Shown piece after piece: positions 6,904 through 57,917 of a stretch of DNA of 64,000 bases. Source of the DNA: Patescibacteria group bacterium (lineage in GTDB: Bacteria; Patescibacteriota; Microgenomatia; UBA1400; UBA1449). How positions within the stretch are numbered: position 1 is the stretch's first letter; each line of letters begins with the position of its first letter. Under the pieces are notes generated by a model. It worked only from the letters and a program-made list of their open reading frames with translations, was not told the origin of the DNA and made no database searches. The stretch spans positions 307 to 64,306 of the forward strand of contig JBMNOG010000005.1 in assembly GCA_050942955.1 (NCBI GenBank), given 5' to 3'. A program made the position numbers and the translations under genes.

Positions 6904-8403
6904 TTAGTATTCGTCCTGAATATGCCCCCAGCTGGTGCATGTATTGTTGGTATGACATATCTGACATTCGACAGTATAAGTCCCAGATGCTGCATCTTCT
7001 GGAATAAAATAATCCCACATGGCCTCTTTATTCTCATTTAAAGCAACGCCAGTTATACCTGTGTCTGGGATAATTTCATTGTTTAAAAGAACTCTAAAAT
7101 TGGCACTGCTGGCGTTGCTACCACTACCTTTGCAGGTGTAAGTGACAGTTTGTCCTCTGCTAGGATTGGAATTGGACGGGGAAAGCTCTGTACAGCTAAG
7201 TGGTTCTTGTACTTCTTCTACTGTAATCCATTTGATGCAGTTGTTACTACACGAAATTCCAAGGTTTTGCCAGTCAGCGGCATCTACAACACAGCGGTTT
7301 AATCCGACTGTGTTTTCATATAGAATACCCCCTACGGCACACAAGTACTTACACTGATTGCTTTCATATGCATTAGTCTCAAAAGCATAGATGCCAGGCT
7401 CGGTTGGAGTAAAAGTTCCCCTAATAGTATTACTACCTGTTGTTTCTAAGGTTGCAATACCAGTCCCTAAGATTACTCTACCTTTTTCCATGTTTGCTTC
7501 TGGAACCTTTGCATAACGGATAACCCCATAGTCACTTACATTTGCCTCAATAGATACGCTTGAACCCACTTGAGTTGTAGTACTACTTACTTTAAGACTA
7601 TTACAAGAGAAGTTTGGGTAAGTAGGAGTTGAGCAAAGACTATTATTCCAGCTGCAGCCAGTTGCCGCTCTCTGCCAGCCAGCTCCACTTACATCAAGTT
7701 GATAAATTCCACAAGTCGCTGGGGATGATAAGTCCATACATTCTCCAGGATCAAGAGTTACTGTGCGTGATTGACAACCGACACCTTTATTTGCATCAGC
7801 TTCGCACTGATCTTTGGTTTTGTCAGGCCAGTATTCTTCTTTACATTCTGCCACAGATAAGTCTACCGAGCTTCCTCCGGTATTACAAAAATGGTACGCA
7901 TCTCCTTCTAGAACTGCATCACCTGGTCCTTGGTTTACTTGGCAGGATCCGTTCAGCCAAGTACATCTTTCTCCATGAGTCCAGCATGTTGATTCATCTC
8001 CAATAGAGGTGCAAGGGGTGCAGGATCCATAGTGACACACTTGATCATCGCTACAGTCACTATTACTATCACAGTTAGAACTATCGTTATCACTACTATT
8101 ATCATCGCTATTGCTGCAAGGCCCAGCGCATTCTGTTCTACACTCTCCCCAAGAAGAACTCCATGTTCCATTTTCACATCGCCAAACTTCTGCTTCTCCT
8201 GCATCTTCATTACATCCACCGCAATTACCTGTACACCTCCGACTATAGGAACCTTCGGGAGAACAAGGTTCTCCTTGAGAAACAAATATCTCTGGAAGAG
8301 TTTGTTCTGAAAGTCTTAATGCTGTGATAACCGACCCTACACCCAAAGCGATGCAGACAAAAAAGACGAAAAGTGGTAGGACTTGGCCGGCGTTTCTCTT
8401 CAT
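6904..8403 (-). CDS. Secreted Cys-rich (~60 Cys) protein with an Asp/Ser/Asn low-complexity stretch
   Basis: N-terminal signal peptide MKRNAGQVLPLFVFFVCIALG. Dense Cys content. SDNDSSNCDSNSD low-complexity region at nt 8030-8110. The start lies 2 nt from the stop of the upstream gene. Confidence 0.55.
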   Translation of the reverse strand: MKRNAGQVLPLFVFFVCIALGVGSVITALRLSEQTLPEIFVSQGEPCSPEGSYSRRCTGNCGGCNEDAGEAEVWRCENGTWSSSWGECRTECAGPCSNSDDNSSDNDSSNCDSNSDCSDDQVCHYGSCTPCTSIGDESTCWTHGERCTWLNGSCQVNQGPGDAVLEGDAYHFCNTGGSSVDLSVAECKEEYWPDKTKDQCEADANKGVGCQSRTVTLDPGECMDLSSPATCGIYQLDVSGAGWQRAATGCSWNNSLCSTPTYPNFSCNSLKVSSTTTQVGSSVSIEANVSDYGVIRYAKVPEANMEKGRVILGTGIATLETTGSNTIRGTFTPTEPGIYAFETNAYESNQCKYLCAVGGILYENTVGLNRCVVDAADWQNLGISCSNNCIKWITVEEVQEPLSCTELSPSNSNPSRGQTVTYTCKGSGSNASSANFRVLLNNEIIPDTGITGVALNENKEAMWDYFIPEDAASGTYTVECQICHTNNTCTSWGHIQDEY

Positions 8404-45260: not shown

Positions 45261-47630
45261 TTGCTTGAACGTATGAAAAAAAACACAAAACCTACTTCAA
45301 AAGTCAGAAAGTCTACTAAAACTCGCCAGTCTTCCAATAAAAACAAAGTAAAATCTGCATCAAAGTCTTTAGTAAAAGCTGTAGTTACTAAGAAAACCAC
45401 TTCTAAACCCTCACTTATTAAGAGTAGTAAAACAGAAAAGCTGTTAAATTGTTACATTCCAAAAGTAGCTTGGTACGGTGCTTTAGTCTTAGGATTTGTT
45501 TTTTTTCTACTTTATCTTTTTACAGCTCCTAAAACAAACGTTGCTTACACTGATTCTGATCTCTTCCTAACAGTTGCCTATAAACTAGGACTTGCAGAAC
45601 CACCGGGTGTACCTTTATATATGGTGCTGCTTCATTTTTTTCTTAATCTCCCCATCCCGGGATCAATCGCTTTCAGGGGTCATTTTCTAAGCACCCTTCT
45701 GCATACAGGCTCTTTAGTTATTGTGTTTGTATCAGTATGGAGGTTAATTCAGTTTCTTCAAAACAACAACAATGCAAAACTAATAATAGTTTCAAAGCAA
45801 GTTGATAGGTGGTTAGTTAGTGGTATAGCTACAGCTTCCCTAGGATCTTCATACCTGTTTTGGCAGTACGGAATTGTAGCTGAAAAATATGCCTTTATTG
45901 ATCTTTTAGTTGCTGCTGTGATTGGTATTGGAGTTTATGTGGCTACTACTGCTAAATCAAAAACAAATCTTTCTTACTGGTATGCCCTTGCCGGTTTAAT
46001 TGGGATCTTAGTTATTCATCATCCAATCTCTTTTGTTTTACTGCCTTTTGTCGCAATTTTAGTTTGGTTGAAAAAAGATATCTTTTCGAGAAAACAATAT
46101 ATGGGAATGGTGTTATCACTGTTAGTTTCTATAAGTATTAGCATAGGTGTTTTACTTGGATTAAATGCCTTAGAAAGAGAAATTAACTGGAACTTTAAGC
46201 CAACTGTTAAAGAAACAATAGACTATGTGTTTACCCAGGGTTTTAGTCGTAGTATTGCTGAAAACTTTGAAGAATACTCAGCCTTTGCTCAGATTAGCAG
46301 TGGCTCAGTTTTTAAGTCCTTAATGCAGTTTGGTAAAGTGTTTGTACAGCACTTTGGTTTGGGATCAGTCGCGCTTTTAGTGGTAGGAATTGCCTTTTTA
46401 TACTCCTCTTCAAAAAAAATGAGTTTAGTAATTCTAAGCGGCTGGACAACCGTAGGGCTGTTACTACCAGTGTTTCTGAAATGGCCAGAGAGCATGAGTT
46501 TTCAGGCTTTACGGGTACGTGACTACCTTATGGGGTACATGTTTACTCCTTTACTTGTAGGTTTGGGGGGTTGGATGGTGCTGGCGCGGTTTAATAAAGC
46601 TCTTAAAATACTTTTGCAAAACAACCGTGTTTCAACAGGGGTTACTCTTGTTGTTCCTGCGCTCATTTTAATCGTATCTATTGTAAATACTTTTAAACAC
46701 GTAAATTTACGTAACTTTACAGTATTTAGCCGTTTTCATGAATCGGTTCTTGAAAACCTTCCTCATGATGCGCTGATTGGATGTTTTACGGATACGACTT
46801 GCTCAGCTCTTTTGTATGAACAAGAGGTTAAAGGTGTAAGAAAAGATGTAATTATTGTTTCTCCTTCGCACCAGTTAATACAGAAAAAGCTTAACAGTAT
46901 TGATAACCTCAAAGGTTTTGATTACACGAATAATACCTGGTTGGTGCATGACTACTTGACTTGGAATATCGGTAAAAGGCCGGTGTATGTTATTGATCTA
47001 CCTAAAACCTATTACAACCTTCTCGGTTTAACCTACGGATTTACGTACTACATTCCAAATGGGTATGTAGGTGAATTGACTCGTGAAGTTCCAGAGGTAA
47101 CTCCATCTGTCAAGTATTCTTTTTCCGAAGAGATCGAAAACATGAATGTTCCCTCAAAAGACTTAATGCGGACTTGGCTTAAAACCTCATACGCACAGCT
47201 CCATTACTTTAATGCCGTCATGTATCTAAAAATGGATTACAGGAGCTTGGCGCGGTCAGAGTTGAATACTTTTTCTAACATTCTCCATCAAGTAGAAGCT
47301 ATTTCTAATAAAGAGATAGAAGATTCTCGGAGCTATGTTGAAGGTTCTCATCCATTAGTCAATTTTTCGCCTGGATCTGAAGTACAGCCTCTTAGCGAGA
47401 TTATGAACGGAGTTAACGCGTATTTAAATGATGGGAAACTACAGAGAGCATATACAGGTGCACTGGGGATTATTACAATTGATCCGCTCAATGAAGAAGG
47501 TCGGCTGAAACTGGCTGAGATTTATGAAAAAATGGGTAATACCCAAATGGCAAAAGTGGAGTATCAGCACGTGCTCAAGTATTACCCAAGTAACACTCAA
47601 GCTCAAACTAAACTTGCAGAGCTTAAATAG
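45261..47630 (+). CDS. DUF2723/TMEM260-like GT-C glycosyltransferase with C-terminal TPR repeats (paralog 1)
   Basis: Basic Ser/Lys-rich N-terminus. Multi-TM domain with YTDSDLFLTVAYKLGLAEPPGVPLYMVL. TPR repeats at the C-terminus. Confidence 0.55.
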   Translation: MLERMKKNTKPTSKVRKSTKTRQSSNKNKVKSASKSLVKAVVTKKTTSKPSLIKSSKTEKLLNCYIPKVAWYGALVLGFVFFLLYLFTAPKTNVAYTDSDLFLTVAYKLGLAEPPGVPLYMVLLHFFLNLPIPGSIAFRGHFLSTLLHTGSLVIVFVSVWRLIQFLQNNNNAKLIIVSKQVDRWLVSGIATASLGSSYLFWQYGIVAEKYAFIDLLVAAVIGIGVYVATTAKSKTNLSYWYALAGLIGILVIHHPISFVLLPFVAILVWLKKDIFSRKQYMGMVLSLLVSISISIGVLLGLNALEREINWNFKPTVKETIDYVFTQGFSRSIAENFEEYSAFAQISSGSVFKSLMQFGKVFVQHFGLGSVALLVVGIAFLYSSSKKMSLVILSGWTTVGLLLPVFLKWPESMSFQALRVRDYLMGYMFTPLLVGLGGWMVLARFNKALKILLQNNRVSTGVTLVVPALILIVSIVNTFKHVNLRNFTVFSRFHESVLENLPHDALIGCFTDTTCSALLYEQEVKGVRKDVIIVSPSHQLIQKKLNSIDNLKGFDYTNNTWLVHDYLTWNIGKRPVYVIDLPKTYYNLLGLTYGFTYYIPNGYVGELTREVPEVTPSVKYSFSEEIENMNVPSKDLMRTWLKTSYAQLHYFNAVMYLKMDYRSLARSELNTFSNILHQVEAISNKEIEDSRSYVEGSHPLVNFSPGSEVQPLSEIMNGVNAYLNDGKLQRAYTGALGIITIDPLNEEGRLKLAEIYEKMGNTQMAKVEYQHVLKYYPSNTQAQTKLAELK

Positions 47631-47635
47631 CTGCC

Positions 47636-49885
47636 ATGAAGTTAACTAACAGTAAGTTTAAAGTTATCGGTGCTTTTGTAGTATGTTTACTTTCCTTTGC
47701 TCTTTATACATACAGTGCGGCTAGGACAAACCCTGGATATGCGGATTCAGATGAGCTCATTACTGCTGGTTATCTCCTAGGTTCAGCTCACCCTCCAGGG
47801 TATCCTCTTCAGATAGTTCTAGTTAAACTGTTTACCCTGCTTCCTGTTCCCGGAACAGTGGCATTTAAAGCTAATCTTCTCGCCGCTTTTCTGCAGAGTT
47901 TGACTGTAGTTTTCACCTATCTTACCGGTTTGGAAATATTGCTATTATTAACTTCCAGAAAAAAACTCAAAAAAGAAAAAGACGAAAAGCTTGCAAACGT
48001 TACTATTTTACATACTGTAGTTTCAGCTGGTGGGGCTCTACTACTGGCTCTTTCGGCGCTTTTCTGGCTTTACAGCTCAGTAATTGAAGTAATGTCCTTG
48101 AATAACTTCCTGGCAGCTTTAGCAGTCTGGTGCGGCTTTCAGTGGAAAAAGAACTATAAAAAAACAAAACAAAAGCAGGATATTCCTTGGTTTTTAGCAA
48201 CCTGTTTCGTAGTAGGTTTAGGGCTGTCTCATGTTCATACTTTTGTCCTGCTACTTCCTGGATTTGCCTTTCTGCTTTTTATAACCATATATAAAAAGGG
48301 TAACTGCCAGAAGGAGATAGCAGAGAGAGGGCTATATATTCTAGGCGCAGTTTTACTCGGATTTTTGTCACCTAACCTTTTGCTTTTTTGGTTGAATACT
48401 AGAAAAGCAAAAGTCAGTTGGTACTTCCCTCAGAGCTTACAGGGATGGATTAATCACATTAGTAGAAGAGTGTACTCAGGGTATTTAGTGGAAAACAGCA
48501 GTGAAGTTAGTGCTTACCTGGCCAAGTTTAACCTTAGCCAATACGTAAAAACCTTCCCTTTATATTGGCAGTTTTTAGGTTCTCATTTTGTCTATGTTGG
48601 ATTGGTCCTTGGACTAGTGGGAGTTGTTTGGCTAGCCAGAAAACACAGAGAGTTGCTAATGGTATTGGGTACACTTTACCTTTTTCCAGGTCTACTACTG
48701 GCTCTTTACATGGGAATGCCGGACAAATCTCCGGTAGAGAATCTGGAGTATCGAAGCATTGTAGGAGTTTCCCAAAGGCAAATGCTATTGGGTGAAACTA
48801 TGTGGGGACTTCTAGTTATTGTAGGTTTGTGGGGAGTAGTTACCTTACTTCATCACTTCATAAAAAATAAAATTGTAGCTCTCTTTTTAGGAGTTTCATT
48901 CTTAGTGCTTACGTTAGGCTTATCTTTTTGGCAGAACCGGACAATGGGAGTGCAAAGAAACAACACTATTGCCTGGGACTATGCCAAAGAAGTCTTAAGC
49001 AAAGCTGAAGAAAACTCTGTTCTTATTTGTTTTGCTGACTTTTCTTGCTTCTCTTTGTTTTATATGCAGGAAGTTGAGGGTTTTCGTCCTGATGTAGCTG
49101 TCCTTAGCAAAAATGCATACCTTAAAAAGAATTACTTGGAAAAGAACCCTCATCTTAAAGGTTTTGATTATATTGATAATCCTTACTTTGTGGCTGATTT
49201 AATTACCTGGAATGTTAGCCAAAGAACGACATACCTTACAGACACCTCAGGTTTTTACTCTAAATACCTTGGTTTTGAAGGTGATCCGTTTTATTTGGTT
49301 CCGGAAGGATATCTCTACCGAGTAACTACAAAACTGCCTCAAAAAGTGTCTGATAATGACTATACTCTTACACAAAAACTGTTGCACTTATCGAAATCAG
49401 AAAAAGATTACTGGATAAATGGGTTGCAGGATTACTTTGCCAACTTCCATACTATTAGTGGTACCATTTTTAGCTACTTAAATGAAAAAGAAGAAGCAAG
49501 GGAAAACTTTAGATTAGCAACTGAACTTTCGCCAGACTATGCTTTAGCTCAAACACTTCAAGATAGTCTCTCCGGATATTTTGGCAATCCTAACTATGAA
49601 TTAGGTCAAGAAAGTTCTAGTTCGGCAGAGTTTTTACAAAGTGGCCTTGAGAAAATTGAACAGGGAGAAATCGAAGCTGCTTATAAAGATATTCAAAAAG
49701 CTACATTTCTTGATCCTCTTAATAAGGATGCGAGACTTAAGTTGATGGAACTGTACGAACTGGGAGGATATTACCGTGAAGCTGTCATGGAATGCCGTAA
49801 TATTCTCAAGTATTATCCAGAGGAGCCAGGAGTAGTTGAAGAATTAAAACAACTTGAAAATGCAATTAAAACTGAGATTAATTGA
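47636..49885 (+). CDS. DUF2723/TMEM260-like GT-C glycosyltransferase with C-terminal TPR repeats (paralog 2)
   Basis: YADSDELITAGYLLGSAHPPGYPLQIVL motif with the same architecture. Starts 5 nt after paralog 1. Confidence 0.55.
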   Translation: MKLTNSKFKVIGAFVVCLLSFALYTYSAARTNPGYADSDELITAGYLLGSAHPPGYPLQIVLVKLFTLLPVPGTVAFKANLLAAFLQSLTVVFTYLTGLEILLLLTSRKKLKKEKDEKLANVTILHTVVSAGGALLLALSALFWLYSSVIEVMSLNNFLAALAVWCGFQWKKNYKKTKQKQDIPWFLATCFVVGLGLSHVHTFVLLLPGFAFLLFITIYKKGNCQKEIAERGLYILGAVLLGFLSPNLLLFWLNTRKAKVSWYFPQSLQGWINHISRRVYSGYLVENSSEVSAYLAKFNLSQYVKTFPLYWQFLGSHFVYVGLVLGLVGVVWLARKHRELLMVLGTLYLFPGLLLALYMGMPDKSPVENLEYRSIVGVSQRQMLLGETMWGLLVIVGLWGVVTLLHHFIKNKIVALFLGVSFLVLTLGLSFWQNRTMGVQRNNTIAWDYAKEVLSKAEENSVLICFADFSCFSLFYMQEVEGFRPDVAVLSKNAYLKKNYLEKNPHLKGFDYIDNPYFVADLITWNVSQRTTYLTDTSGFYSKYLGFEGDPFYLVPEGYLYRVTTKLPQKVSDNDYTLTQKLLHLSKSEKDYWINGLQDYFANFHTISGTIFSYLNEKEEARENFRLATELSPDYALAQTLQDSLSGYFGNPNYELGQESSSSAEFLQSGLEKIEQGEIEAAYKDIQKATFLDPLNKDARLKLMELYELGGYYREAVMECRNILKYYPEEPGVVEELKQLENAIKTEIN

Positions 49886-50996
49886 TTACCGGTGTCTCAG
49901 TTTGAATAATAACCTCATTATACTTTTCAACGACAATTTTTTTGTTGCCTTTAAAATCGCTTAACCATAAACGTTTAAACTGAGCTGGTCCGTCGGGAAC
50001 GATTTCCTCAATGAGAAATTGGTTTTCAGACCAGGGGATGGAGCGGGGCTTGTTAAGTTCTGAAGCAATAGTTATTGGAGTACGTGCTACCTCTTTTCGT
50101 TGATAGTAATCGAAAACATGCCAGTATCCCTTTTTGCTTAAAACAAAAATTTTATCGTTAATACATTTCACAGATAGAATAGCATTATCTTCATTCAAGG
50201 AAACAATAGTTTCCGGGTTTTCAGGATTGATAACGGTGTAAAGCTCAAGTGTACTATTGTTAATAGTAACCACTCCAGTAGAGTCAGGTGCCCAAAAAAC
50301 ATAGTTTCTGTCTGCTAGATTAGTTTTGGTGGAGAACTGATGAGATGATCTCCCTCCTTTTGTAGTAAACATGAATTTGGGTTTATCAGTTGTTTGTCCG
50401 TATCCTGAAACGAACAGAATCATACTCCCATTAGGTGAAAGTTTAAAGACGTTACCGTAAGGGTAAGGGATGGGAGCTTGAATCACAGTTCCATTTGCCA
50501 GGTTATGATGGTACAGAGTATTTCCTTCATCTGTGATAAACATAACAACATTTGAGTTAGGAGAGAAATCTAAGTATGGATTGGTGTTAAGGAAACTATT
50601 TGGAGGGTAAATACTGTAAATTTCTTGTGATTTAATACTTAAAGCCATTACACCTTTAATAGGAGTGTACCAAACGACCCATTGCTTAGTTGGACTTATA
50701 ATAAAGCTCTCTATTTCGGGTGCTGGGGGTTGTTCTTCACTTTTGAAAGCATAGATAGCAAGAGGTCTGGCAAACTCAGGGTCAACAAGGTAAAGGGAGT
50801 TATTATTTGCAAACGCAACTAAACTATTTCCCTGAAGGATATCATCTATAGAGATTGGACTATTTTCTACTGGGTTTTCAGGACCTTTTGAACTTAGTTG
50901 AAACTGAGAAAAATCAATCTTTGGGGAACAGGCTGTTAAAAAGAGTCCTAAAAGGCAGAAAAGAACTAGGTAAATACCATACTTAATTGATCCCAT
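49878..50996 (-). CDS. Secreted lipoprotein, probable beta-propeller (TolB/WD40-like) fold
   Basis: Lipobox LFLTAC. Repetitive beta-strand-rich sequence. Confidence 0.4.
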   Translation of the reverse strand: MGSIKYGIYLVLFCLLGLFLTACSPKIDFSQFQLSSKGPENPVENSPISIDDILQGNSLVAFANNNSLYLVDPEFARPLAIYAFKSEEQPPAPEIESFIISPTKQWVVWYTPIKGVMALSIKSQEIYSIYPPNSFLNTNPYLDFSPNSNVVMFITDEGNTLYHHNLANGTVIQAPIPYPYGNVFKLSPNGSMILFVSGYGQTTDKPKFMFTTKGGRSSHQFSTKTNLADRNYVFWAPDSTGVVTINNSTLELYTVINPENPETIVSLNEDNAILSVKCINDKIFVLSKKGYWHVFDYYQRKEVARTPITIASELNKPRSIPWSENQFLIEEIVPDGPAQFKRLWLSDFKGNKKIVVEKYNEVIIQTETPVIN

Positions 50997-51052: not shown

Positions 51053-52474
51053 TTACTTCTGCTCTTTAACTTGCTTAACTTTGTCAGTGTTGATTTCATC
51101 TAAAATACTGCTAACAGATTCACTAAATTCTGCCTCAAATCTTTCTTTGCCTTCTTTTTCTTTTATTATTTCCATCTTGCTTTCTAGTGCTGCCAACTCT
51201 CCTGATATTACTTCCTGAATATAACGCACTTTAAGCTTATTGCTTCGCGAGTTCATGACCATCTTCCAGATGATGATAGTAAGCAGCATAAGGAAAGTGA
51301 GAGTAGAGATGAAGTTAATAAGAACAACAGTCTTATCGGCTCTAGATTTACCCGGAATGAGCAGATCTCTTAAACTCTGAACAGACATAACTTCTCCAGC
51401 CTCCCCTGGTTCCATGGGGTATGATTCAGGAATTTCAAACGGGGTGGCATTGGGTCTTGGAGTGAGGTTAATTGGTGCTGGTACTGTATTATCTTCTTCT
51501 ACCACTTCAAGTTCACTAGTTCCCGATGTGCTCGTTTTTTTTGTGCCACCGCTACTTTTAAAGTTATCAGTAACGTCAACTACATTGACATCGTCAAATA
51601 GAGTAGTTTGGTTAACAATAGGAGTTGGGTTCGGGTTGGCTGAGGCTGTGGCTGTAGGGGTAACTGTGGGTGTAGGTGTTGGCGTTGGTGTTGGTGTAGC
51701 TGTAGGCTCTGATGAAGAAGTTGGAGTAGCTGAGGGAGTAGGGCTAGGAGAGGGTGTGGGTGTAGCAACTGTTTCTCCTTGAATACTAATATTAAATATC
51801 GGTTGTGTTCCGGGTGTTTTAATTTGTCCATTATAAAGTAGGATAATATCTGAAAAAGTCATGGAGGTATTGCCTGGAGCATATGGTTTTATGACAAAAG
51901 TAGCAATCTTACCGTCTCCGTTAAATCCATCTGTGCCTCCGACCCCTGCAGTAAAGATGATTTTATGGTTGTAGGCGTAAGGTGTAGAAGTGCTGTAATC
52001 TTTTCCTGGTGGAACAGAGTTTGCAGGGGTGAAAAAGGGGAAAACAGTCCCATTTTTATTAATTCTTGCCGTTATCCAGCCCGCCCAGTAGCCATTAATG
52101 TCAGACTGGAAGTAATCAGGAGAATAGTTAACAACCACCTGCATTGTACCTATTTGTTGGCTGCAAGTATTGAGCCGTAATTCCACTGTTGATTCTGTCC
52201 CTGCAGTGAATCCCGTACTGGAGCTTAAGTAGAAAAATGGAGCATTTCCTTGTTCCTCGCAGGTGTAAGCGTATACGCTAGGAGTAAGAATTCCAAAAAA
52301 AAGGAAAGAAATAATCAGTAGTAGAAAAAACCTAACTAGCTTAGAATTCATAGTCTGCCTAAAATTATGCCTGGTTGAGAAACATTTTTCAATGAAGAAG
52401 TTTAAATACATCAAGAGTGTCTGTCTACTAGGCTTTTCTTTTTCTAATAAGCCACAAGATTGTGTTAACTGCAA
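51053..52474 (-). CDS. Surface protein: cohesin-like domain, PT-rich linker, TM anchor, cytoplasmic coiled-coil tail (probable true start at MNSKLVRFF, ~52351)
   Basis: Signal peptide after Met-42. Cohesin-like segment ATFVIKPYAPGNTSMTFSD. A (TPTPSP)n linker. TM segment LTFLMLLTIIIWKMVM. Confidence 0.45.
   Translation of the reverse strand: MQLTQSCGLLEKEKPSRQTLLMYLNFFIEKCFSTRHNFRQTMNSKLVRFFLLLIISFLFFGILTPSVYAYTCEEQGNAPFFYLSSSTGFTAGTESTVELRLNTCSQQIGTMQVVVNYSPDYFQSDINGYWAGWITARINKNGTVFPFFTPANSVPPGKDYSTSTPYAYNHKIIFTAGVGGTDGFNGDGKIATFVIKPYAPGNTSMTFSDIILLYNGQIKTPGTQPIFNISIQGETVATPTPSPSPTPSATPTSSSEPTATPTPTPTPTPTVTPTATASANPNPTPIVNQTTLFDDVNVVDVTDNFKSSGGTKKTSTSGTSELEVVEEDNTVPAPINLTPRPNATPFEIPESYPMEPGEAGEVMSVQSLRDLLIPGKSRADKTVVLINFISTLTFLMLLTIIIWKMVMNSRSNKLKVRYIQEVISGELAALESKMEIIKEKEGKERFEAEFSESVSSILDEINTDKVKQVKEQK
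51610..51770 (-). repeat. Pro/Thr-linker codon repeat (GGTGTTGGCGTTGGTGTTGGTGTAGC on the + strand)
   Basis: Short tandem units encoding (TPTPSP)n. They produce a spurious GVGVGV ORF on the plus strand. Confidence 0.55.
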
Positions 52475-53162
52475 AGATACATCCCAATGTACCGATAGTG
52501 GTTATAAATACCCAGTTAGTTGGTGTTTGAGTGATGGTTTTTGAACTAGATACAGAAGAATCGCCATCATAAAAAGGAATAGCAGGTGCAAAAGTAGAGT
52601 TAGTTTCAAACTGGGGTGGAGGAGTGCCATCAGGTTCTCCGATTTTCATCCTAAAACTATCCATAGCTCCCGGCTTGATAATTGTGCCCAAAAACTGAAA
52701 ACTGGGATAGACAAAGGAAATTGCAGTATATCCCTTCTGTTTTGCTTTTAAGGAGAAAATTGCTATTAGACCTTCATCGTCATCATATGCTTTTGATTCA
52801 GGAAAACTGCAGGCAAAGATAAGTTTAGAACCGTAGTAGTAAGGGGTAGTCCTTTCAAAATTTTCACCGGGAGGGATTGAGACGGCCGGCTTCCATGAGG
52901 AACAAACTGAATTTTGAACATTAAGAGCATGAAAGTCCCAGTACTCCTCATCAAACTGAATAGCAATTTGCACTGTTTCCAGTTGGCTGCCATCACTGTT
53001 TAAGAATAACTTGAAAATGCCAACATCACCTTCGTTATAGTACTCTTCGCCAGTAAGGTAAAAAAAAGGATTTGCGGTAACTACGGAAGGATGCGCTAAT
53101 ACACAAAAAGAAAGAATGATTGTAATAGAAAAACTTCGGATTAATAGTCTCAATCTAATCAT
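52428..53162 (-). CDS. Cohesin-like domain protein with a C-terminal TM anchor (paralog)
   Basis: PFFYL...TPYYYGSKLIFA...IAIFSLKAKQKGYTAISFV parallels the neighbouring gene. C-terminal TM followed by RKRKA. Confidence 0.45.
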   Translation of the reverse strand: MIRLRLLIRSFSITIILSFCVLAHPSVVTANPFFYLTGEEYYNEGDVGIFKLFLNSDGSQLETVQIAIQFDEEYWDFHALNVQNSVCSSWKPAVSIPPGENFERTTPYYYGSKLIFACSFPESKAYDDDEGLIAIFSLKAKQKGYTAISFVYPSFQFLGTIIKPGAMDSFRMKIGEPDGTPPPQFETNSTFAPAIPFYDGDSSVSSSKTITQTPTNWVFITTIGTLGCIFAVNTILWLIRKRKA

Positions 53163-53232: not shown

Positions 53233-53778
53233 TCAGATGTGGTTGACGATCATCACGGTTTGTTCAGAGGGTTGTGAAAAAATGTTGGTTCCCTTGCCGT
53301 CATTTAAAAGGATCAAGCTGTTTTCACTAATCTTTATTTTAGTTTCTCCGACCGTTTTTGCCATAAAAGTGATTTCAGCAATAGTGTTTTGCCCTTTAAA
53401 ACCCGGACTGGGAGATCCGCACTCAATAGAAATTGTTCCTTTTGTATCGTTAAATTTATTAACAGGATAAAACTGGCAAAAAGATTTTGAAGTATCCACA
53501 TTCACAATGGAAAGTTTGTCAGGATCGAATGATACAAAAAGAGCCACCGCGTTTGCAGCTTGATTATCGCTATCAGCTATAATTTGTGCTTTGAACATAG
53601 TACTAACTAAAACTTCCCTATCGGCTTCAATATAAAATGCACCATTTCCTTGTGTTTTTTTACCCAGCACTAGTTTTCCAAAAAAATTTTGGCTTATTAA
53701 AATATAGCTTAAGGAAATGAGAGCAATTAAAGCAAAAGAGGCTAAAACTACCCAGTAGAATAGTTCTTTTCGTTTCAT
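53233..53778 (-). CDS. N-terminally anchored cohesin-like domain protein
   Basis: N-terminal TM. Segment NTIAEITFMAKTVGETKIKISENSLILLNDGKG resembles cohesin beta-sandwich strands 8 and 9. Confidence 0.45.
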   Translation of the reverse strand: MKRKELFYWVVLASFALIALISLSYILISQNFFGKLVLGKKTQGNGAFYIEADREVLVSTMFKAQIIADSDNQAANAVALFVSFDPDKLSIVNVDTSKSFCQFYPVNKFNDTKGTISIECGSPSPGFKGQNTIAEITFMAKTVGETKIKISENSLILLNDGKGTNIFSQPSEQTVMIVNHI

Positions 53779-53779
53779 T

Positions 53780-55474
53780 TTAAATGAATTCTAGAGAGCT
53801 CAATATAACATCTATTCTCTTTGCATCATCCTCTGAGAGAGTAGGACTGAAGGTAGCATACCAAATATCAAAAATATAGTCATTGTGTTTGACTAGATAT
53901 TTATCTCCAGGATACTCGGAAAAGTCTTCAAGCTCCAAAAACAATGCCTCTTTATTTTTAAATGTAGTCTCTTTAACCTTGTAGTTTAAACTGCTGGCCT
54001 TTATTAGTTTCCAGTATTCTTTAACTTCTAGGGCAGTCTCAGCGACTTGAATCTTAAAAATGTACCCTGTCTTTCGGATGAAAGTGATACTACTGTCAGT
54101 TTTAATAACATTCACCGCATTTTTGGGATAGTTTAACTGTATACCGATAGTGCCATCCTTAATAGTATCCCACTGGGTTTCGGCAAAAGGCACATTAGCT
54201 TGTGATTCTGCATACTTCTCGTCACTTACCCCTTTAGTTTGAGGTTGAGATTGCGTTTGAGTCTCAGGAGGAGTGGTTGGCTGAGAAGATTCGTTTATTT
54301 TTTTTCCCAACTCTGCTTGTTCTGTTACTGGTTGAGCGTCAGGGGGCAGATATTCTTGGAGTAGTGTTGTATCTACTTCCGTATTGCGGTTGAGAGTCAT
54401 CCATACAACTCCACCAATAATTGAAACTAAAAGTATTGTTGAACCTAGAACTACAAGAGGTTTAGGGATCTTCGAAAAGAACCCTTTTTTTTCATTTTTT
54501 TCAGGTTGGGTTGGGGTTTGCTTAGTTGATGGTTGGTTTTGGGCCAATTTATCCTGGACGGGAACTGACTGTGCTGGTTGCTCTTGAGTTAGCCTAGATT
54601 GCTCTGATTGAGTAGTGGTCGCTTGTTCAGGTTTTTGCTCCTCTGGTTTGGCTGCTGGTTGAGTCTGAGGTTGAGATTCTTGTGGAGAGGTATTAGTTTC
54701 GGTTGATGTACTTACTTGAGTATTAGTTTGAGATGCTTCCGGTTGGACAGGCGCAGGTGAAGCAGATACTGGTGCCGGCTGGTTTACGGGAGTAGTCACT
54801 GCAATCTTTTCGCTCTCAATTAGTTGATTCATGGCTTGAACTACTTCCTGAAGCTCTTTAGAAATGGTGAAAAACTTATTCTTGGTGATAGGCTCACTGC
54901 GATGCATGTCTTTTCGTAAGCTCTTGATGGTACTCTCCAGTTTCTTCTTCTCGTCAGTAAAAGAATCCTTCATCTCTTCAAGTTCTTTTTTAAGACGGCT
55001 TTCTTTTTTTGAAGAATGTTCTATTTTCTTTTCGATGAGTGAAAGTTTCTCATTCACATCGTGATTTACAAAATCCGGCTTATTGTCTACTTCTGCTTCT
55101 TGTTCAACTATGCTTTTTGGTAGTGAAAATTCCTCTGATAAGCTAGTCTCTGAAGCTGGAAGTTCGGTCTCAGAAACTGGCGACAAAGTGGAGTTATGCT
55201 TTTGAGAAACTTTTTCTATCTGTTTAATAGATTCAAGCTTTTCTAACTGAGTTTTTATCTTCTGATCCAATTCCTCTTTCAATCTTTGAGCTTGTTTAAT
55301 TTTCTCTTCAAGCTCGTTGAGCTCAGGAGCGTCCTGTTTTAAGGGTGGATTAGACTTAGAAGAGGAGATAGGCGAATAAGATTCCTGGGATTGCTTCAGA
55401 CGTTTAATTGGTCTGTAAAATCCAGGTTTTGACCGGCCTGCGGAACTAGTAAGATACTTCTTTGTTCTTGCCAT
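53780..55474 (-). CDS. Large coiled-coil / PQT-rich protein with a central TM segment (hypothetical)
   Basis: N-terminal coiled coils, a Gln/Pro/Thr-rich region, a TM (VVLGSTILLVSIIGGVVWM) and a C-terminal globular domain. Confidence 0.45.
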   Translation of the reverse strand: MARTKKYLTSSAGRSKPGFYRPIKRLKQSQESYSPISSSKSNPPLKQDAPELNELEEKIKQAQRLKEELDQKIKTQLEKLESIKQIEKVSQKHNSTLSPVSETELPASETSLSEEFSLPKSIVEQEAEVDNKPDFVNHDVNEKLSLIEKKIEHSSKKESRLKKELEEMKDSFTDEKKKLESTIKSLRKDMHRSEPITKNKFFTISKELQEVVQAMNQLIESEKIAVTTPVNQPAPVSASPAPVQPEASQTNTQVSTSTETNTSPQESQPQTQPAAKPEEQKPEQATTTQSEQSRLTQEQPAQSVPVQDKLAQNQPSTKQTPTQPEKNEKKGFFSKIPKPLVVLGSTILLVSIIGGVVWMTLNRNTEVDTTLLQEYLPPDAQPVTEQAELGKKINESSQPTTPPETQTQSQPQTKGVSDEKYAESQANVPFAETQWDTIKDGTIGIQLNYPKNAVNVIKTDSSITFIRKTGYIFKIQVAETALEVKEYWKLIKASSLNYKVKETTFKNKEALFLELEDFSEYPGDKYLVKHNDYIFDIWYATFSPTLSEDDAKRIDVILSSLEFI

Positions 55475-55556: not shown

Positions 55557-56801
55557 CTATGTTCCCCAGTAGTACATCATAATGCTGAAGTCGATTAGGT
55601 TGACAGTCCCGTCGCTATTAATATCCGCTGAAGCACTGGTAGTTCCCCAGTAGTACATGAGAATACTGAAGTCAGTGAGGTTAGTGTGAGAATCACAGTT
55701 CAAATCTCCTTGAGAAATACCACAGCCTGGAGGTGAAGGAGTGGGTCCGGAACTGGGTAAAACTGAAAATTGCAAGGAGTTACTAAAAAGACTTTGGGAA
55801 CCTGTACCATTTTGGACTAAGCTATAGATTCGGTAGTCTCCCGGTATATACTCACTTGTGTTGTCTATAGTGTAATCCCAATTTCCAGAAGTATCTGCAG
55901 TAGCGTAGTAGGTTCTGAGAGGAGATTCAGTAAAAATACTCAAGTCTCCTGAAATAATTGTTGAACCGCTAACAATAAGCGGGTCACCTTGAGTAACTTC
56001 GGTTGCATCAATTTCAATCGTTGGCGAAAGCAGAAGGTCAGATACAGTAGTCTGTTGATAAATTGGAGTTTGAACTTCAATAGGAAGGATGGATGTAGTT
56101 CGATTGTCTAGATCAACTCCGTACATAGTGATATTATGAGTTCCGGGATCAAGTCCAAGCAGTAGTTTGGTAAAGGTACCAAGTAGGCCTGCAGTTTCTG
56201 TTCCGATCACAGTACCGTTTTCTGTAAAAGTGATAAATGTTCCGGGTGCAGAATACCCTGAAATGAGTAGAGAAGCTGTAGCCGGAGCAATAGATGCAGA
56301 TACAGTGACTGATCCACCCCATCCTGTAGCGAGGAATGAAGTAATGTTTTTAATAATCAGCCCTTCAGCATCTTCAGTGACACTTACCTGAACCTGGTAA
56401 AGGTTTTGAGAGTCTGGGTTAGTAGCTGTTATACCTGAGATGGTAATTCTATTACCTCTTAGAACAGCTATCCCGGTGACTTTTATCGTGTTTCCTTCCT
56501 GACTAAACTCAGGATTTCCGAGATAACTTCCTGTTACTTGTCCGTTAACAAGTGTAACGTCGGTAAAATGTGGTAAATCTATGTGAATGTAGTCAGATGA
56601 ACTGATAATTTCAGAATCCAAAGGCAAAGTAAAACTGACCATGTGAGAAACGTTAGGCAAACTAGTTTGGTCGTGGCTAATAACATCCTGTCCATCAAGT
56701 AAATAGCCTGAGGCATGAGCTAAGGGGGTAAAAATTAGGCTGACTAAGGGAAAAATACAAAGAAGGCCAAAATAATAGCGAGCAGTATGAGGCATAAGCA
56801 A
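55557..56801 (-). CDS. Secreted Ig-like repeat protein with a C-terminal type-I dockerin module
   Basis: Signal peptide. The C-terminus has two 22-aa Ca-binding repeats, GDLNCDSHTNLTDFSILMYYWG and ADINSDGTVNLIDFSIMMYYWG, each fitting DxNxDxxxNxxD. Confidence 0.6.
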   Translation of the reverse strand: MLMPHTARYYFGLLCIFPLVSLIFTPLAHASGYLLDGQDVISHDQTSLPNVSHMVSFTLPLDSEIISSSDYIHIDLPHFTDVTLVNGQVTGSYLGNPEFSQEGNTIKVTGIAVLRGNRITISGITATNPDSQNLYQVQVSVTEDAEGLIIKNITSFLATGWGGSVTVSASIAPATASLLISGYSAPGTFITFTENGTVIGTETAGLLGTFTKLLLGLDPGTHNITMYGVDLDNRTTSILPIEVQTPIYQQTTVSDLLLSPTIEIDATEVTQGDPLIVSGSTIISGDLSIFTESPLRTYYATADTSGNWDYTIDNTSEYIPGDYRIYSLVQNGTGSQSLFSNSLQFSVLPSSGPTPSPPGCGISQGDLNCDSHTNLTDFSILMYYWGTTSASADINSDGTVNLIDFSIMMYYWGT

Positions 56802-56871: not shown

Positions 56872-57819
56872 TTAACCCTTAAACATTACTTTCAGGACTT
56901 TAGCCAAGCGTTTTCGGCCGACAACCAGAGTCAAAACAAAACCCACGATTGCTACTGCCGCAACAAACCCTAAGATGAGTACCATTTTTGGAATGACTGT
57001 AAACTTAGTTGCAGCAGTTAACGGCAATTTATTTTGTCCGTACGTAGCTATTAGAGTTGCGGTAAAGACACCCATTACGTTTGCCTGATCCCATGTAGTC
57101 TCCATTTTCCGAATAGCCCCTGGAAGAACATTTCTGCCTTCAAGTGGAATTTCAGCTACTTTTTTACCGAAAATGTTGGTAATAACAATGGTACCTTGAG
57201 GAATAATGTGAGTATTACTCTCATTTTTAACCCTGGCTAAAAGTTTTACGGGCCCCTTTTCCAGATATTTAGGTGCAGAAAAATCTTCAAGTATTGCCTT
57301 TTCAACTACGTTTCCTGAAACTCTGAGCAGCACCAATGTACCCACTCTTTGTGCCACTTTGGCTCCTCCCGGCACATCTGTATCAGCACCTGTCTGGAAA
57401 AGGATTGAAGCGTAGTGTCCTCCAGGTTCACCATTCCGGGGAATATTAATCATGAAATTAAATGCCTGTTCTTCCTTAGGCTGGAGGATTATGTCTCGAG
57501 TTGATGGCTCAATCCATTTTGCTAACGAATACGATGCATCAGATTCTCCCTCTTCCAACACCACATGTCCTTCTTCCCCGCTTGTGGTAAAGTCTTCAAC
57601 GAGGATACTATACGTCATTGGTTCATCTGACTCATTTCTCACTCTGATTTTTTCTGAAATGGTGTCTCCGGGATTACCAAATAACTCAAACTTAGGTGGA
57701 ATAACAGTAAGTGCACTGCTATTCTGAGCCTGAGCAGGAGAGCTTACTAGTATGGCAGTGAGCAGAAAGGAGATAAGGGCGAGGGGCAGCTTATGAGATG
57801 AGGAGCTTAAGAGTTTCAT
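56872..57819 (-). CDS. Cell-surface protein with signal peptide and C-terminal TM plus basic tail (DUF916/DUF3324-like architecture)
   Basis: Signal peptide ending AQAQ. ~270-aa ectodomain. TM LILGFVAAVAIVGFVLTLVV followed by GRKRLAK. Confidence 0.4.
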   Translation of the reverse strand: MKLLSSSSHKLPLALISFLLTAILVSSPAQAQNSSALTVIPPKFELFGNPGDTISEKIRVRNESDEPMTYSILVEDFTTSGEEGHVVLEEGESDASYSLAKWIEPSTRDIILQPKEEQAFNFMINIPRNGEPGGHYASILFQTGADTDVPGGAKVAQRVGTLVLLRVSGNVVEKAILEDFSAPKYLEKGPVKLLARVKNESNTHIIPQGTIVITNIFGKKVAEIPLEGRNVLPGAIRKMETTWDQANVMGVFTATLIATYGQNKLPLTAATKFTVIPKMVLILGFVAAVAIVGFVLTLVVGRKRLAKVLKVMFKG

Positions 57820-57917
57820 AGATTATTTTTGATATTAACTCAAAAGATATAAGCTTGTCAAAGTTTTTAACTAAGTATTGTAATAGTAATCTAAGAAAGC
57901 TTTTTTGTCCACAGTTA

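What the first reader, a model, noticed from the sequence alone, without database searches (positions are those of the whole stretch)
55557..56801. Canonical type-I dockerin duplicated Ca-binding motif at the C-terminus of a secreted Ig-repeat protein, two genes from the cohesin-like trio
GDLNCDSHTNLTDFSILMYYWG and ADINSDGTVNLIDFSIMMYYWG both fit the dockerin F-hand consensus D-x-N-x-D-G-x-x-N-x-x-D followed by a hydrophobic helix. A dockerin beside cohesin-like membrane proteins implies a non-cellulosomal cohesin-dockerin surface assembly system. No glycoside hydrolase is attached to the dockerin. If this organism is an episymbiont, the assembly could mediate host attachment or protein tethering.
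Basis: partly seen in the sequence, partly recalled or inferred. Interest (0 to 1): 0.7.

Follow-up and report, generated by a model that had tools for sequence, protein, structure and literature searches.

The report
Dockerin-cohesin surface tether in Patescibacteria
A secreted protein of an ultra-small Patescibacteria (CPR) bacterium ends in a genuine dockerin "plug", the membrane proteins encoded next to it carry the matching cohesin "socket", and this gene set recurs in most related loci across the radiation, so it is probably a standard cell-surface tether and not a cellulose-degrading machine.

Summary
ORF 55557-56801(-) encodes a signal-peptide protein with an N-terminal beta domain, two Ig domains and a C-terminal dockerin. 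The dockerin passes Pfam Dockerin_1 (30.5 bits, cut-off 22.9), and its nearest solved relatives are type-I dockerins.

The three downstream membrane proteins all carry one cohesin-like domain. For the 181-aa protein, the 20 best fold matches of its model are all cohesins. The 244- and 432-aa proteins match its family profile at 99.8% probability. NCBI already names the dockerin and 181-aa proteins "dockerin type I" and "cohesin domain-containing" (Patescibacteria).

The new result is conservation of the context. In 80 related loci from many CPR lineages the order is WxLIP-like gene, dockerin gene, then 1-5 cohesin genes. The next gene after a dockerin-bearing member is a cohesin in 52 of 79 cases. 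After dockerin-less paralogs it is a cohesin in 0 of 51.

There is no glycoside hydrolase, no carbohydrate-binding module and no multi-cohesin scaffoldin, so this is not a cellulosome.

Most likely the membrane cohesins hold the Ig-dockerin protein on the cell surface through a Ca2+-dependent bond, as part of a WxLIP-type surface complex. Binding itself and any role in host attachment are untested. I rate it a new variant of a known kind, of moderate interest.

The parts
57832..57861 (-). Promoter-like site (TTGACA, 18 nt, TAATAT) just upstream of the first gene of the cluster
   Evidence: 10 of 12 consensus matches. The count of such sites in the region is not above the shuffled expectation, so this is only suggestive.
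56872..57819 (-). WxLIP-like protein (315 aa): signal peptide, two Ig-like domains, C-terminal transmembrane helix and basic tail
   Evidence: Pfam WxLIP_PGBD scores 28.6 bits against a cut-off of 27.3. 21 of 29 family members match it. The family profile matches the solved E. faecium EfmWxLIP1 (9i25/9i1y) over residues 42-263, E 0.0025. The gene lies immediately upstream of the dockerin gene in 60 of 79 related cases.
55557..56801 (-). Secreted protein: N-terminal beta domain, Ig, Ig, dockerin. 414 aa from TTG; the annotated start is the ATG at 56795 (412 aa).
   Evidence: NCBI names the identical protein 'dockerin type I domain-containing protein [Patescibacteria group bacterium]'.
55560..55709 (-). 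Dockerin module: two 22-residue F-hand repeats whose starts are 27 residues apart
   Evidence: Pfam Dockerin_1 30.5 bits, E 4.2e-07. Across 72 related proteins the residues D1, N3, D5, N/D9, D12 and the following F-S-I are 87-100% conserved. The best solved-sequence matches are type-I dockerins: 5nrm_B E 4.9e-05, then 2y3n_B and CelS.
53780..55474 (-). 564-aa membrane protein. As read from the sequence: coiled-coil and P/Q-rich N-terminal part (probably cytoplasmic), one transmembrane helix, and a C-terminal domain of about 200 aa (probably external). Found only in close relatives.
   Evidence: No Pfam or NCBIfam family. Homologs lie between the dockerin and cohesin genes in 13 related loci.
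53233..53778 (-). 181-aa membrane-anchored cohesin: N-terminal transmembrane helix, linker of about 15 aa, cohesin domain. It is the best candidate partner of the dockerin.
   Evidence: Pfam Cohesin scores 23.7 bits against a cut-off of 24.1. 35 of 40 relatives match, best E 2e-10. The AlphaFold2 model has pLDDT 90. The 20 best Foldseek matches in the PDB are all cohesins (2jh2 E 7e-12; 2vo8 TM 0.81). NCBI name: 'cohesin domain-containing protein'. It keeps the family's near-invariant ILLNDGKGTNI motif.
52428..53162 (-). 244-aa cohesin-like protein: signal peptide, cohesin-like domain, C-terminal transmembrane anchor
   Evidence: It is a paralog of the 432-aa protein (30% identity, E 8e-20). 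Its family profile matches the 181-aa family profile with hhalign probability 99.8%, E 5e-29. It has no direct Pfam match. The NDGKGT motif is degenerate (alignment).
51053..52351 (-). 432-aa cohesin-like protein: signal peptide, cohesin-like domain, Pro/Thr-rich stalk, transmembrane helix, conserved tail after the helix (probably cytoplasmic)
   Evidence: The gene start at 52351 follows the gene call in L001. The tail motif LGELAALExKxD...EKG..G......EF is conserved in the orthologs of Microgenomates-, Berkelbacteria- and CPR2-type loci.

Best explanation
**What it is.** The gene belongs to a conserved cell-surface gene cluster of Patescibacteria. The gene order is: a WxLIP-like membrane protein, then a secreted protein with an N-terminal beta domain, two Ig domains and a dockerin, then one to five membrane-anchored single-cohesin proteins.

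**How it probably works.**
1. The Ig-dockerin protein is exported by the Sec pathway.
2. Its C-terminal dockerin folds around two Ca2+ ions.
3. The dockerin plugs non-covalently into a cohesin that sits on the outer face of the cytoplasmic membrane. The most likely partner is the 181-aa protein, which keeps the family's invariant NDGKGT motif.
4. The protein is thereby held on the cell, with its two Ig domains acting as a spacer and its N-terminal domain pointing outward.
5. The WxLIP-like protein encoded just upstream probably takes part in the same complex.

The system displays or tethers a protein. It does not scaffold enzymes.

**Shown here:** the dockerin and cohesin identities, the domain layouts including the hydrophobic anchor segments, and the conserved, dockerin-specific gene linkage.

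**Inferred:** the physical binding, which cohesin is the partner, the membrane orientation of the proteins, and the biological role (surface architecture or adhesion to a host cell).
For: **Dockerin.**
- Pfam score above cut-off in the window protein and in 26 of 26 relatives.
- The Ca-ligand residues are 87-100% conserved in 72 relatives.
- Two helices are predicted with pLDDT 84-92.
- The closest solved sequences are type-I dockerins.

**Cohesin.**
- The 20 best fold matches of a pLDDT-90 model are all cohesins, including the non-cellulosomal ones of C. perfringens and A. fulgidus.
- 35 of 40 relatives match Pfam Cohesin.
- The two other neighbours share the domain.

**Linkage.**
- 52 of 58 informative loci have a cohesin gene within 3 kb, 54 have the WxLIP-like gene, and 48 have both.
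- The gene directly downstream of a dockerin-bearing family member is a cohesin in 52 of 79 cases, and in 6 more it is a homolog of the window's 564-aa protein, which in this window lies between the dockerin and cohesin genes. For dockerin-less paralogs in the same loci the figure is 0 of 51.
- The loci come from Microgenomates, Berkelbacteria, CPR2, WWE3 and many Parcubacteria lineages.

**Stoichiometry in the window.** One dockerin and three cohesins.

**Topology.**
- The 181-aa protein has a transmembrane helix at residues 3-29.
- The WxLIP-like, 244-aa and 432-aa proteins have C-terminal transmembrane helices.

**Domain swap.** The dockerin-less paralogs share the N-terminal domain but end in a different domain of about 190 aa. 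That is what one expects if the C-terminal part is the exchangeable anchor.
Against: - No interaction was predicted or measured.
- The window's 181-aa protein is 0.4 bits under the Pfam Cohesin cut-off, and the 244- and 432-aa proteins match no Pfam family directly.
- Six of 58 relatives keep the dockerin protein without an adjacent cohesin gene: L007, L011-L014 and L020.
- The related loci were retrieved through dockerin peptide patterns. The sample therefore cannot show what happens where the dockerin is absent.
- The helix residues after the Ca loops (F-S-I-L/M-M-Y-Y-W) differ from those of studied dockerins, so the binding mode may differ.
- There is no expression or localisation data.
- The only experimentally studied CPR relative of the WxLIP half, the S. 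epibionticum cluster SEML1_0625-0628, was non-essential in co-culture.
Confidence: 0.65

Rival explanations
1. The cohesin-dockerin pairs are assembly joints of a larger self-built envelope structure, such as an S-layer anchor, a surface coat or a fibre. On this reading the Ig-dockerin protein is a structural envelope subunit and not a displayed adhesin. The cohesin proteins, with stalks of different length and tails beyond the membrane helix, would fix the layer to the membrane.
For: - The whole-protein model matches S-layer and giant-adhesin Ig arrays best (7ptp, SiiE, Bap).
- There are 1-5 cohesin proteins per locus, with stalks of graded length and charged tails after the membrane helix.
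- Conservation across the CPR is what one expects of a housekeeping envelope part.
Against: - The fold matches are generic Ig similarities with low TM-scores (0.1-0.4).
- No lattice-forming or SLH domains were detected.
- Nothing shows self-assembly.
- It overlaps with the best explanation, because it still needs the cohesin-dockerin bond.
Confidence: 0.15
2. The dockerin-like module does not bind the neighbouring cohesins. It would be a Ca2+-binding EF-hand-like domain that stabilises the protein or binds another ligand, such as a glycan, peptidoglycan or a host surface. The cohesin-like proteins would bind something else.
For: - Some family members also score on EF-hand Pfam families (7 of 26).
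- The helix residues are unusually hydrophobic compared with studied dockerins.
- Wang et al. 2023 speculated that a Saccharibacteria dockerin protein targets host glycans.
- Six relatives lack adjacent cohesin genes.
Against: - The adjacency is dockerin-specific: 52 of 79 against 0 of 51.
- Both modules belong to the two families whose only established function is to bind each other. That point rests on established knowledge (Peer et al. 2009, as cited in PMC9012536).
- Each side has a near-invariant surface motif across the radiation.
Confidence: 0.12
3. A miniature cellulosome-like system that scaffolds polysaccharide-degrading enzymes on the cell surface.
For: The dockerin is closest in sequence to cellulosomal type-I dockerins. 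The 432-aa protein has a Pro/Thr-rich linker like those of scaffoldins.
Against: - There is no glycoside hydrolase, carbohydrate-binding module or other catalytic domain in the dockerin protein or the cluster.
- The 64-kb window holds a single dockerin.
- Every cohesin protein has one cohesin.
- Anchoring is by transmembrane helices, not by SLH domains or sortase.
- In the 80 related loci the dockerin is always on the same non-enzymatic family.
Confidence: 0.03

Closest known systems
Non-cellulosomal cohesin-dockerin pairs of Clostridium perfringens (NagH/NagJ-type toxin complexes; PDB 2jh2, 2vo8, 2w1n, 2ozn)
   Same: They give the best structural matches of the 181-aa cohesin model (E 7e-12, TM up to 0.81). 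Each protein has a single cohesin or dockerin module, and the pair joins proteins outside a cellulosome. This functional description rests on established knowledge of that system.
   Different: There the modules sit on secreted glycoside hydrolases and join enzymes to each other. Here the dockerin is on a non-enzymatic Ig protein, and the cohesins are membrane-anchored by transmembrane helices.
Archaeal and other non-cellulosomal cohesin/dockerin modules (Archaeoglobus fulgidus 2xdh; survey by Peer et al. 2009; ANME archaea, PMC9012536)
   Same: These are cohesin and dockerin modules in organisms that do not degrade cellulose, with a proposed role in surface or cell-cell assembly. 2xdh is among the top fold matches.
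   Different: Those surveys report scattered, variable architectures. Here a single fixed operon layout is conserved across many lineages of one radiation, together with a WxLIP-like gene.
Cellulosomal type-I dockerins and anchoring scaffoldins (e.g. A. cellulolyticus DocCel5 5nrm, C. thermocellum CelS/Xyn10B dockerins)
   Same: They share the duplicated 22-residue F-hand with D/N ligands at positions 1, 3, 5, 9 and 12, and they are the best sequence matches. The two repeats are near-symmetrical, as in dual-binding-mode dockerins.
   Different: There is no enzyme cargo, no multi-cohesin scaffoldin, no carbohydrate-binding module and no SLH or sortase anchor. The inter-repeat linker is shorter. 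The helices are F-S-I-L/M-M-Y-Y-W, without the usual recognition residues. In the Microgenomates-type members a conserved Cys pair flanks the first loop.
WxL / WxLIP (Csc) cell-surface clusters of Firmicutes (Hassan et al. 2023, PMC10599100; EfmWxLIP1 9i25/9i1y)
   Same: The gene upstream of the dockerin gene has the WxLIP layout: signal peptide, two Ig-like domains and a C-terminal transmembrane helix. It matches PF06030 and EfmWxLIP1. It too lies in a cluster of surface proteins.
   Different: No WxL-domain protein was detected in the window. The neighbouring protein ends in a dockerin, and cohesin genes follow, which is not described for WxL clusters. WxLIP_HBD matched only 1 of 29 members.
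Essential dockerin-domain protein SEML1_0315 of the Saccharibacterium Southlakia epibionticum (Wang et al. 2023, PMC10633639)
   Same: It is a dockerin-bearing, Ig-rich envelope protein in a cultivated Patescibacterium. It is essential in Tn-seq and was proposed to act in host interaction.
   Different: It is 927 aa and stands alone between unrelated genes. The supplementary annotation tables that were searched contain no cohesin term. Orthology with the window protein was not established.

Membership tests
Dockerin type I (Pfam PF00404) | Match to the family HMM above the curated gathering score | tested here: met
   30.5 bits against 22.9, E 4.2e-07. 26 of 26 aligned relatives match, best E 1e-09.
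Dockerin type I (Pfam PF00404) | Two tandem repeats of about 22 residues, each a Ca-binding loop with D/N at positions 1, 3, 5, 9 and 12, followed by a helix | tested here: met
   The sequence shows it directly. Conservation is 87-100% at these positions in 72 relatives. Helices are predicted at 373-381 and 400-409.
Dockerin type I (Pfam PF00404) | Closest to experimentally defined type-I dockerins and not to type II or III | tested here: met
   The top PDB sequence matches are type-I dockerins: DocCel5 E 4.9e-05, then 2y3n_B, CelS and XynY. These are weak single-sequence E-values, so the type assignment stays provisional.
Dockerin type I (Pfam PF00404) | Ca2+-dependent, specific binding to a cohesin | not testable with these tools
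   No multimer prediction or experiment was available. Only genomic linkage supports it.
Cohesin (Pfam PF00963), 181-aa protein | Match to the family HMM above the gathering score | tested here: inconclusive
   The window protein scores 23.7 bits against 24.1, E 6.2e-05. 35 of 40 relatives match at E <= 0.01, best 2e-10. 12 of the 13 PDB profile matches are cohesins, all at weak E-values (best 0.012).
Cohesin (Pfam PF00963), 181-aa protein | Nine-stranded flattened beta-sandwich (jelly-roll) cohesin fold | tested here: met
   The AlphaFold2 model has pLDDT 90. The 20 best Foldseek matches in the PDB are all cohesins, E 7e-12 to 3e-08, target TM 0.64-0.81.
Cohesin (Pfam PF00963), 244-aa and 432-aa proteins | Homology to a cohesin domain | tested here: met
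   There is no direct Pfam match. hhalign of their family profile against the 181-aa family profile gives probability 99.8%, E 5.4e-29 over 124 columns. The family HMM gives E 1.8e-09 and 3.8e-07.
Cellulosome | Dockerins borne by several carbohydrate-active enzymes | tested here: not met
   The 64-kb window has one dockerin, and it is on a non-enzymatic protein. In 80 related loci the dockerin HMM hits only this protein family.
Cellulosome | Scaffoldin with multiple cohesins and a carbohydrate-binding module, anchored by SLH domains or sortase | tested here: not met
   The cohesin-family HMM matches one domain region in each of the three window proteins. The relatives match the 181-aa query at a single N-terminal region. 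No CBM or SLH match was found. The anchors are transmembrane helices.
WxL / WxLIP cluster (as defined by Hassan et al. 2023) | A WxLIP protein: DUF916 (PGBD), DUF3324 (HBD) and a C-terminal transmembrane helix | tested here: inconclusive
   PGBD is met: 28.6 bits against 27.3, and 21 of 29 members match. The profile aligns to EfmWxLIP1 across both domains, E 0.0025. A C-terminal transmembrane helix is present in the window protein; a crude hydrophobicity scan found one in 46 of 89 family members. The HBD Pfam family matched only 1 of 29 members.
WxL / WxLIP cluster (as defined by Hassan et al. 2023) | At least two WxL-domain proteins within four genes of the WxLIP gene | tested here: not met
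   No WxL Pfam match in any of the eight cluster proteins of the window at E <= 1, nor in ten dockerless paralogs from related loci.

The most novel reading that the evidence does not exclude
The cluster is an ancestral surface apparatus found across Patescibacteria. On this reading a WxL/WxLIP-type surface cluster exchanged its wall-binding anchor for a dockerin. That dockerin plugs into a graded set of membrane-spanning cohesins whose conserved tails lie inside the cell. The assembly would be a main host-contact or envelope-organising device of these episymbionts, and it could couple events at the surface to the cytoplasm.
Probability: 0.15. Interest if true: 0.8.

Novelty: new variant of a known kind. 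Interest (0 to 1): 0.55.

Why it matters
How Patescibacteria build their surface and hold on to host cells is largely unknown. Type IV pili are almost the only component studied so far.

A cohesin-dockerin tether encoded by one operon layout, recurring from Microgenomates to Parcubacteria, gives a concrete hypothesis that can be tested with recombinant proteins. It would explain how one conserved surface protein is attached to the cell. It also extends the cohesin-dockerin principle to membrane anchoring of a non-enzymatic protein, in a lineage with no link to cellulose degradation.

The module identities themselves are not new. NCBI's pipeline already names both proteins. The added value is the conserved context and the link to WxLIP-type clusters. 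Full-text searches of the held library found no paper that describes this.

Tried and rejected
1. **Homolog search with the 64-aa dockerin segment alone**. I wanted to see which other architectures carry this dockerin subtype. It returned only three short fragments, which was uninformative.
2. **Structure prediction of the cohesin with the deep alignment A2**. I redid it with alignment A4, built from database hits.
4. **Orthology with the essential S. epibionticum dockerin protein SEML1_0315**. That protein is 927 aa and sits in an unrelated neighbourhood, so I did not use it as functional evidence.
5. **Are the dockerless paralogs' C-terminal domains WxL domains?** There is no Pfam match and no PDB sequence match. 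The idea rests only on a remembered motif resemblance and on a structure-based WxL annotation of a gene in the Saccharibacteria cluster, so it is reported only as something noticed.
6. **Other conserved neighbours**. These were ATP synthase genes, FGE-sulfatase-like proteins and a 23S rRNA IVS protein. None looks part of the system.
7. **Promoter and terminator scan**. The counts are not above the shuffled expectation. Only the site upstream of the WxLIP-like gene is worth noting.
8. **Mirror-tree or co-variation test between dockerin and cohesin.** I considered it and did not run it. The dockerin is too short and too conserved for the result to be separable from shared phylogeny.
9. **Literature**. 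No paper in the held library links cohesin, dockerin, WxL or DUF916 to a conserved Patescibacteria operon.
Full report
**1. The observation**

The minus-strand ORF 55557-56801 is real. It is 414 aa from a TTG. Public gene calls start it at the ATG at 56795, giving 412 aa. Both quoted 22-residue segments are at its C-terminus.

Each segment has D, N, D, N, D at positions 1, 3, 5, 9 and 12 of the Ca-binding loop. The first repeat has S where the consensus has G at position 6, and C at position 4.

Pfam Dockerin_1 scores 30.5 bits (E 4.2e-07) against a gathering cut-off of 22.9. A strict F-hand pattern searched in all six frames of the 64-kb window matches only the second repeat of this ORF. A looser pattern finds both repeats plus one low-complexity stretch at 8056-8091. 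A family-specific dockerin HMM finds only this ORF. The closest solved sequences are type-I dockerins of cellulosomal enzymes: DocCel5 5nrm_B E 4.9e-05, then 2y3n_B, CelS and XynY.

**2. The protein**

I built the AlphaFold2 model on 26 homologs; its mean pLDDT is 88.8. It shows, in order:
- a signal-peptide helix (4-21)
- a beta domain (33-155)
- two Ig-like domains (174-255 and 266-346)
- two short dockerin helices (373-381 and 400-409)

The identical protein is in NCBI as [quoted passage not shown]. More than 200 homologs of about 410 aa exist, some labelled Beckwithbacteria or Microgenomates.

**3. The neighbours**

All genes from 57819 down to 51053 are on the minus strand with short gaps. 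A promoter-like site lies just upstream of the first gene.

- **315-aa protein (56872-57819).** It matches WxLIP_PGBD (28.6 bits, cut-off 27.3). Its family profile aligns with the solved E. faecium EfmWxLIP1 across both Ig domains (E 0.0025). It ends in a transmembrane helix. This is the WxLIP layout described by Hassan et al. 2023.
- **181-aa protein (53233-53778).**
  - It is 0.4 bits under the Pfam Cohesin cut-off, but 35 of 40 relatives match that family.
  - NCBI names it a cohesin domain protein.
  - Its AlphaFold2 model (pLDDT 90) is an N-terminal transmembrane helix plus a beta-sandwich.
  - The 20 best PDB matches of the model are all cohesins, led by the non-cellulosomal C. perfringens modules.
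- **244-aa and 432-aa proteins.** They are paralogs of each other. Their family profile matches the 181-aa family at hhalign probability 99.8%, E 5e-29.

The window holds exactly one dockerin, one WxLIP-like gene and three cohesin-like genes.

**4. Conservation**

A scan of one genome per GTDB species found more than 548 relatives. The best 80 loci were kept. They come from MAGs labelled Microgenomates, Berkelbacteria, CPR2, WWE3, Parcubacteria, Paceibacterota, Kerfeldbacteria, Falkowbacteria, Nomurabacteria, Nealsonbacteria and others. Some close relatives carry Pseudomonadales or Gammaproteobacteria labels. I take these to be mislabelled bins, because the loci are syntenic with the named CPR loci.

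Clustering the ORFs of these loci gives three large families: cohesin-like (157 members), Ig-dockerin (132) and WxLIP-like (89). The recurrent order is WxLIP-like, then dockerin, then one to five cohesins.

| Test | Result |
|---|---|
| Loci with enough flanking DNA | 58 |
| ...with a cohesin gene within 3 kb | 52 |
| ...with a WxLIP-like gene | 54 |
| ...with both | 48 |
| Dockerin-bearing members followed directly by a cohesin gene | 52 of 79 |
| Dockerin-less paralogs followed directly by a cohesin gene | 0 of 51 |

The last two rows are an internal control. The dockerin-less paralogs are instead followed by a WxLIP-like gene (28) or by another family member (10).

One caveat applies. The loci were retrieved through dockerin peptide patterns, so the sample is biased towards dockerin-bearing genes.

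**5. Conserved details that bear on mechanism**

- Across 72 relatives the loop ligands and the following F-S-I-(L/M)-(L/M)-(Y/F)-(Y/W)-W are almost invariant in both repeats. The dockerin is therefore highly symmetrical.
- The cohesin family has a near-invariant ILLNDGKGTNI motif. The window's 181-aa protein keeps it. The 244- and 432-aa proteins have degenerate versions (alignment). The 181-aa protein is therefore the best candidate partner.
- The cohesin proteins differ in anchor and in stalk length, as read from the sequences and alignments:

| Protein | Anchor | Linker or stalk |
|---|---|---|
| 181 aa | N-terminal transmembrane helix | about 15 residues |
| 244 aa | C-terminal transmembrane helix | about 50 residues |
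| 432 aa | transmembrane helix followed by a conserved tail | about 150 residues, Pro/Thr-rich |

**6. Explanation**

The most likely reading is a dedicated tether. The exported Ig-dockerin protein is held on the cell by a Ca2+-dependent bond to a membrane-anchored cohesin, within a WxLIP-type surface complex. The identities, domain layouts and linkage are shown. The binding, the partner and the role in surface architecture or host adhesion are inferred.

A cellulosome-like role is very unlikely. There are no enzymes, no carbohydrate-binding module, no multi-cohesin scaffoldin and only one dockerin.

**7. Comparison with known systems and novelty**

Non-cellulosomal cohesin-dockerin modules are known: C. 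perfringens, A. fulgidus, the survey by Peer et al. 2009, and ANME archaea. NCBI already labels both proteins. The bare finding is therefore a new member of a known kind.

What seems undescribed is the conserved operon and its association with a WxLIP-like gene. Six full-text searches found no paper that links cohesin, dockerin, WxL or DUF916 to a conserved Patescibacteria cluster. The Cell 2023 Saccharibacteria study mentions one essential dockerin protein, which stands alone and is not clearly orthologous. Its supplement lists a non-essential cluster of DUF916, a WxL-like protein and a giant protein.

I rate the finding a new variant of a known kind, with moderate interest.

Noticed in passing
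Related loci, e.g. L015:7078-8166, L025:7102-8205, L034:7630-8718; giant forms L029:26-6886 and L034:36-6449: These are dockerin-less paralogs of the window protein. They share its signal peptide and N-terminal beta domain (hhalign probability 94.6%, E 7e-08). They end in an unannotated domain of about 190 aa (ATVDPxLTF ... TNAxxGY ... QxAGxYxxTxxYxxxxxY) in place of Ig-Ig-dockerin. They usually sit just upstream of a WxLIP-like gene. The C-terminal motif recalls WxL domains, but no Pfam or PDB sequence match supports this.
   Followed up: partly
window 51122-51202 (-), tail of the 432-aa cohesin-like protein: After the transmembrane helix, and so probably inside the cell, there is a conserved motif, LGELAALExKxD...EKG..G......EF. 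It is present in the orthologs of Microgenomates-, Berkelbacteria- and CPR2-type loci. The largest Parcubacteria cohesin proteins have a different conserved charged tail (KETREAAESLKK...PGLSxxEK...EIEDIEKELK). This suggests the cohesin proteins contact something inside the cell.
   Followed up: partly
window 51053-52351 (-); L001:14445-15743 compared with L002:14445-15572: The same gene in a second metagenome (ERR10905741) is otherwise identical except for one substitution. It lacks 30 and 27 residues of the stalk, in frame (432 against 375 aa). This is either a stalk-length polymorphism or an assembly collapse.
   Followed up: partly
window 45261-47630 (+) and 47636-49885 (+): Two tandem TMEM260-like protein O-mannosyltransferase genes (PF11028, E 1e-19 and 2e-34) converge on the end of the surface cluster. 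They recur next to it in close relatives (L003, L004, L006) and lie nearby in L012, L014 and L018. They are candidate glycosylators of the Pro/Thr stalk or the Ig domains.
   Followed up: no
Protein library hits P0152-P0290: The Ig-Ig pair of the dockerin protein (profile positions about 175-352) occurs as a unit repeated 10-36 times in giant proteins of 1,500-6,800 aa. In total there are 1,076 representative proteins at E <= 1e-30 and 11,102 at E <= 0.001.
   Followed up: no
window 55700-55730 (-) in the dockerin; 181-aa protein residues 101 and 120: There are two conserved cysteine pairs. One Cys lies 8-10 residues before the first Ca loop and one at loop position 4; both are present in 35 of 82 dockerins, mainly the Microgenomates type. 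C101 and C120 are invariant in the 181-aa cohesin family. These may be stabilising disulfides.
   Followed up: no
window 53780-55474 (-): This 564-aa protein lies between the dockerin and cohesin genes. It has a coiled-coil and P/Q-rich N-terminal half, one transmembrane helix and an unannotated C-terminal domain of about 200 aa. It is conserved only in the closer relatives (13 loci).
   Followed up: no
Loci L004-L008, L010, L012-L014, L042, L064 and others: Many third-party (TPA) 'binchicken' MAGs that carry this CPR-type cluster are titled Pseudomonadales, Gammaproteobacteria or Coxiellaceae. One 3.5-kb contig is in a 'Pirellulales' bin. These are probably taxonomic mislabels or mis-binning.
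   Followed up: no
S. epibionticum genes SEML1_0625-0628 (PMC10633639 supplement): This cultivated Saccharibacterium has a cluster of an LPXTG-like protein, a DUF916 protein, a protein with a WxL-domain fold match (score 0.85 in the authors' annotation table) and a giant FN3 protein. All were non-essential in Tn-seq, and disruption of 0625 gave a growth advantage. No cohesin term appears in the annotation tables searched.
   Followed up: partly
window 49878-50996 (-): This 372-aa gene is the last on the strand. It encodes a putative lipoprotein, with a lipobox-like LTAC read from the sequence, and has only faint beta-propeller matches. Homologs were found in only a few close relatives: L003-L006 by tblastn, and L003, L004 and L006 at the cluster's end in the ORF clustering. 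It overlaps the end of the TMEM260-like gene by 8 bases.
   Followed up: no
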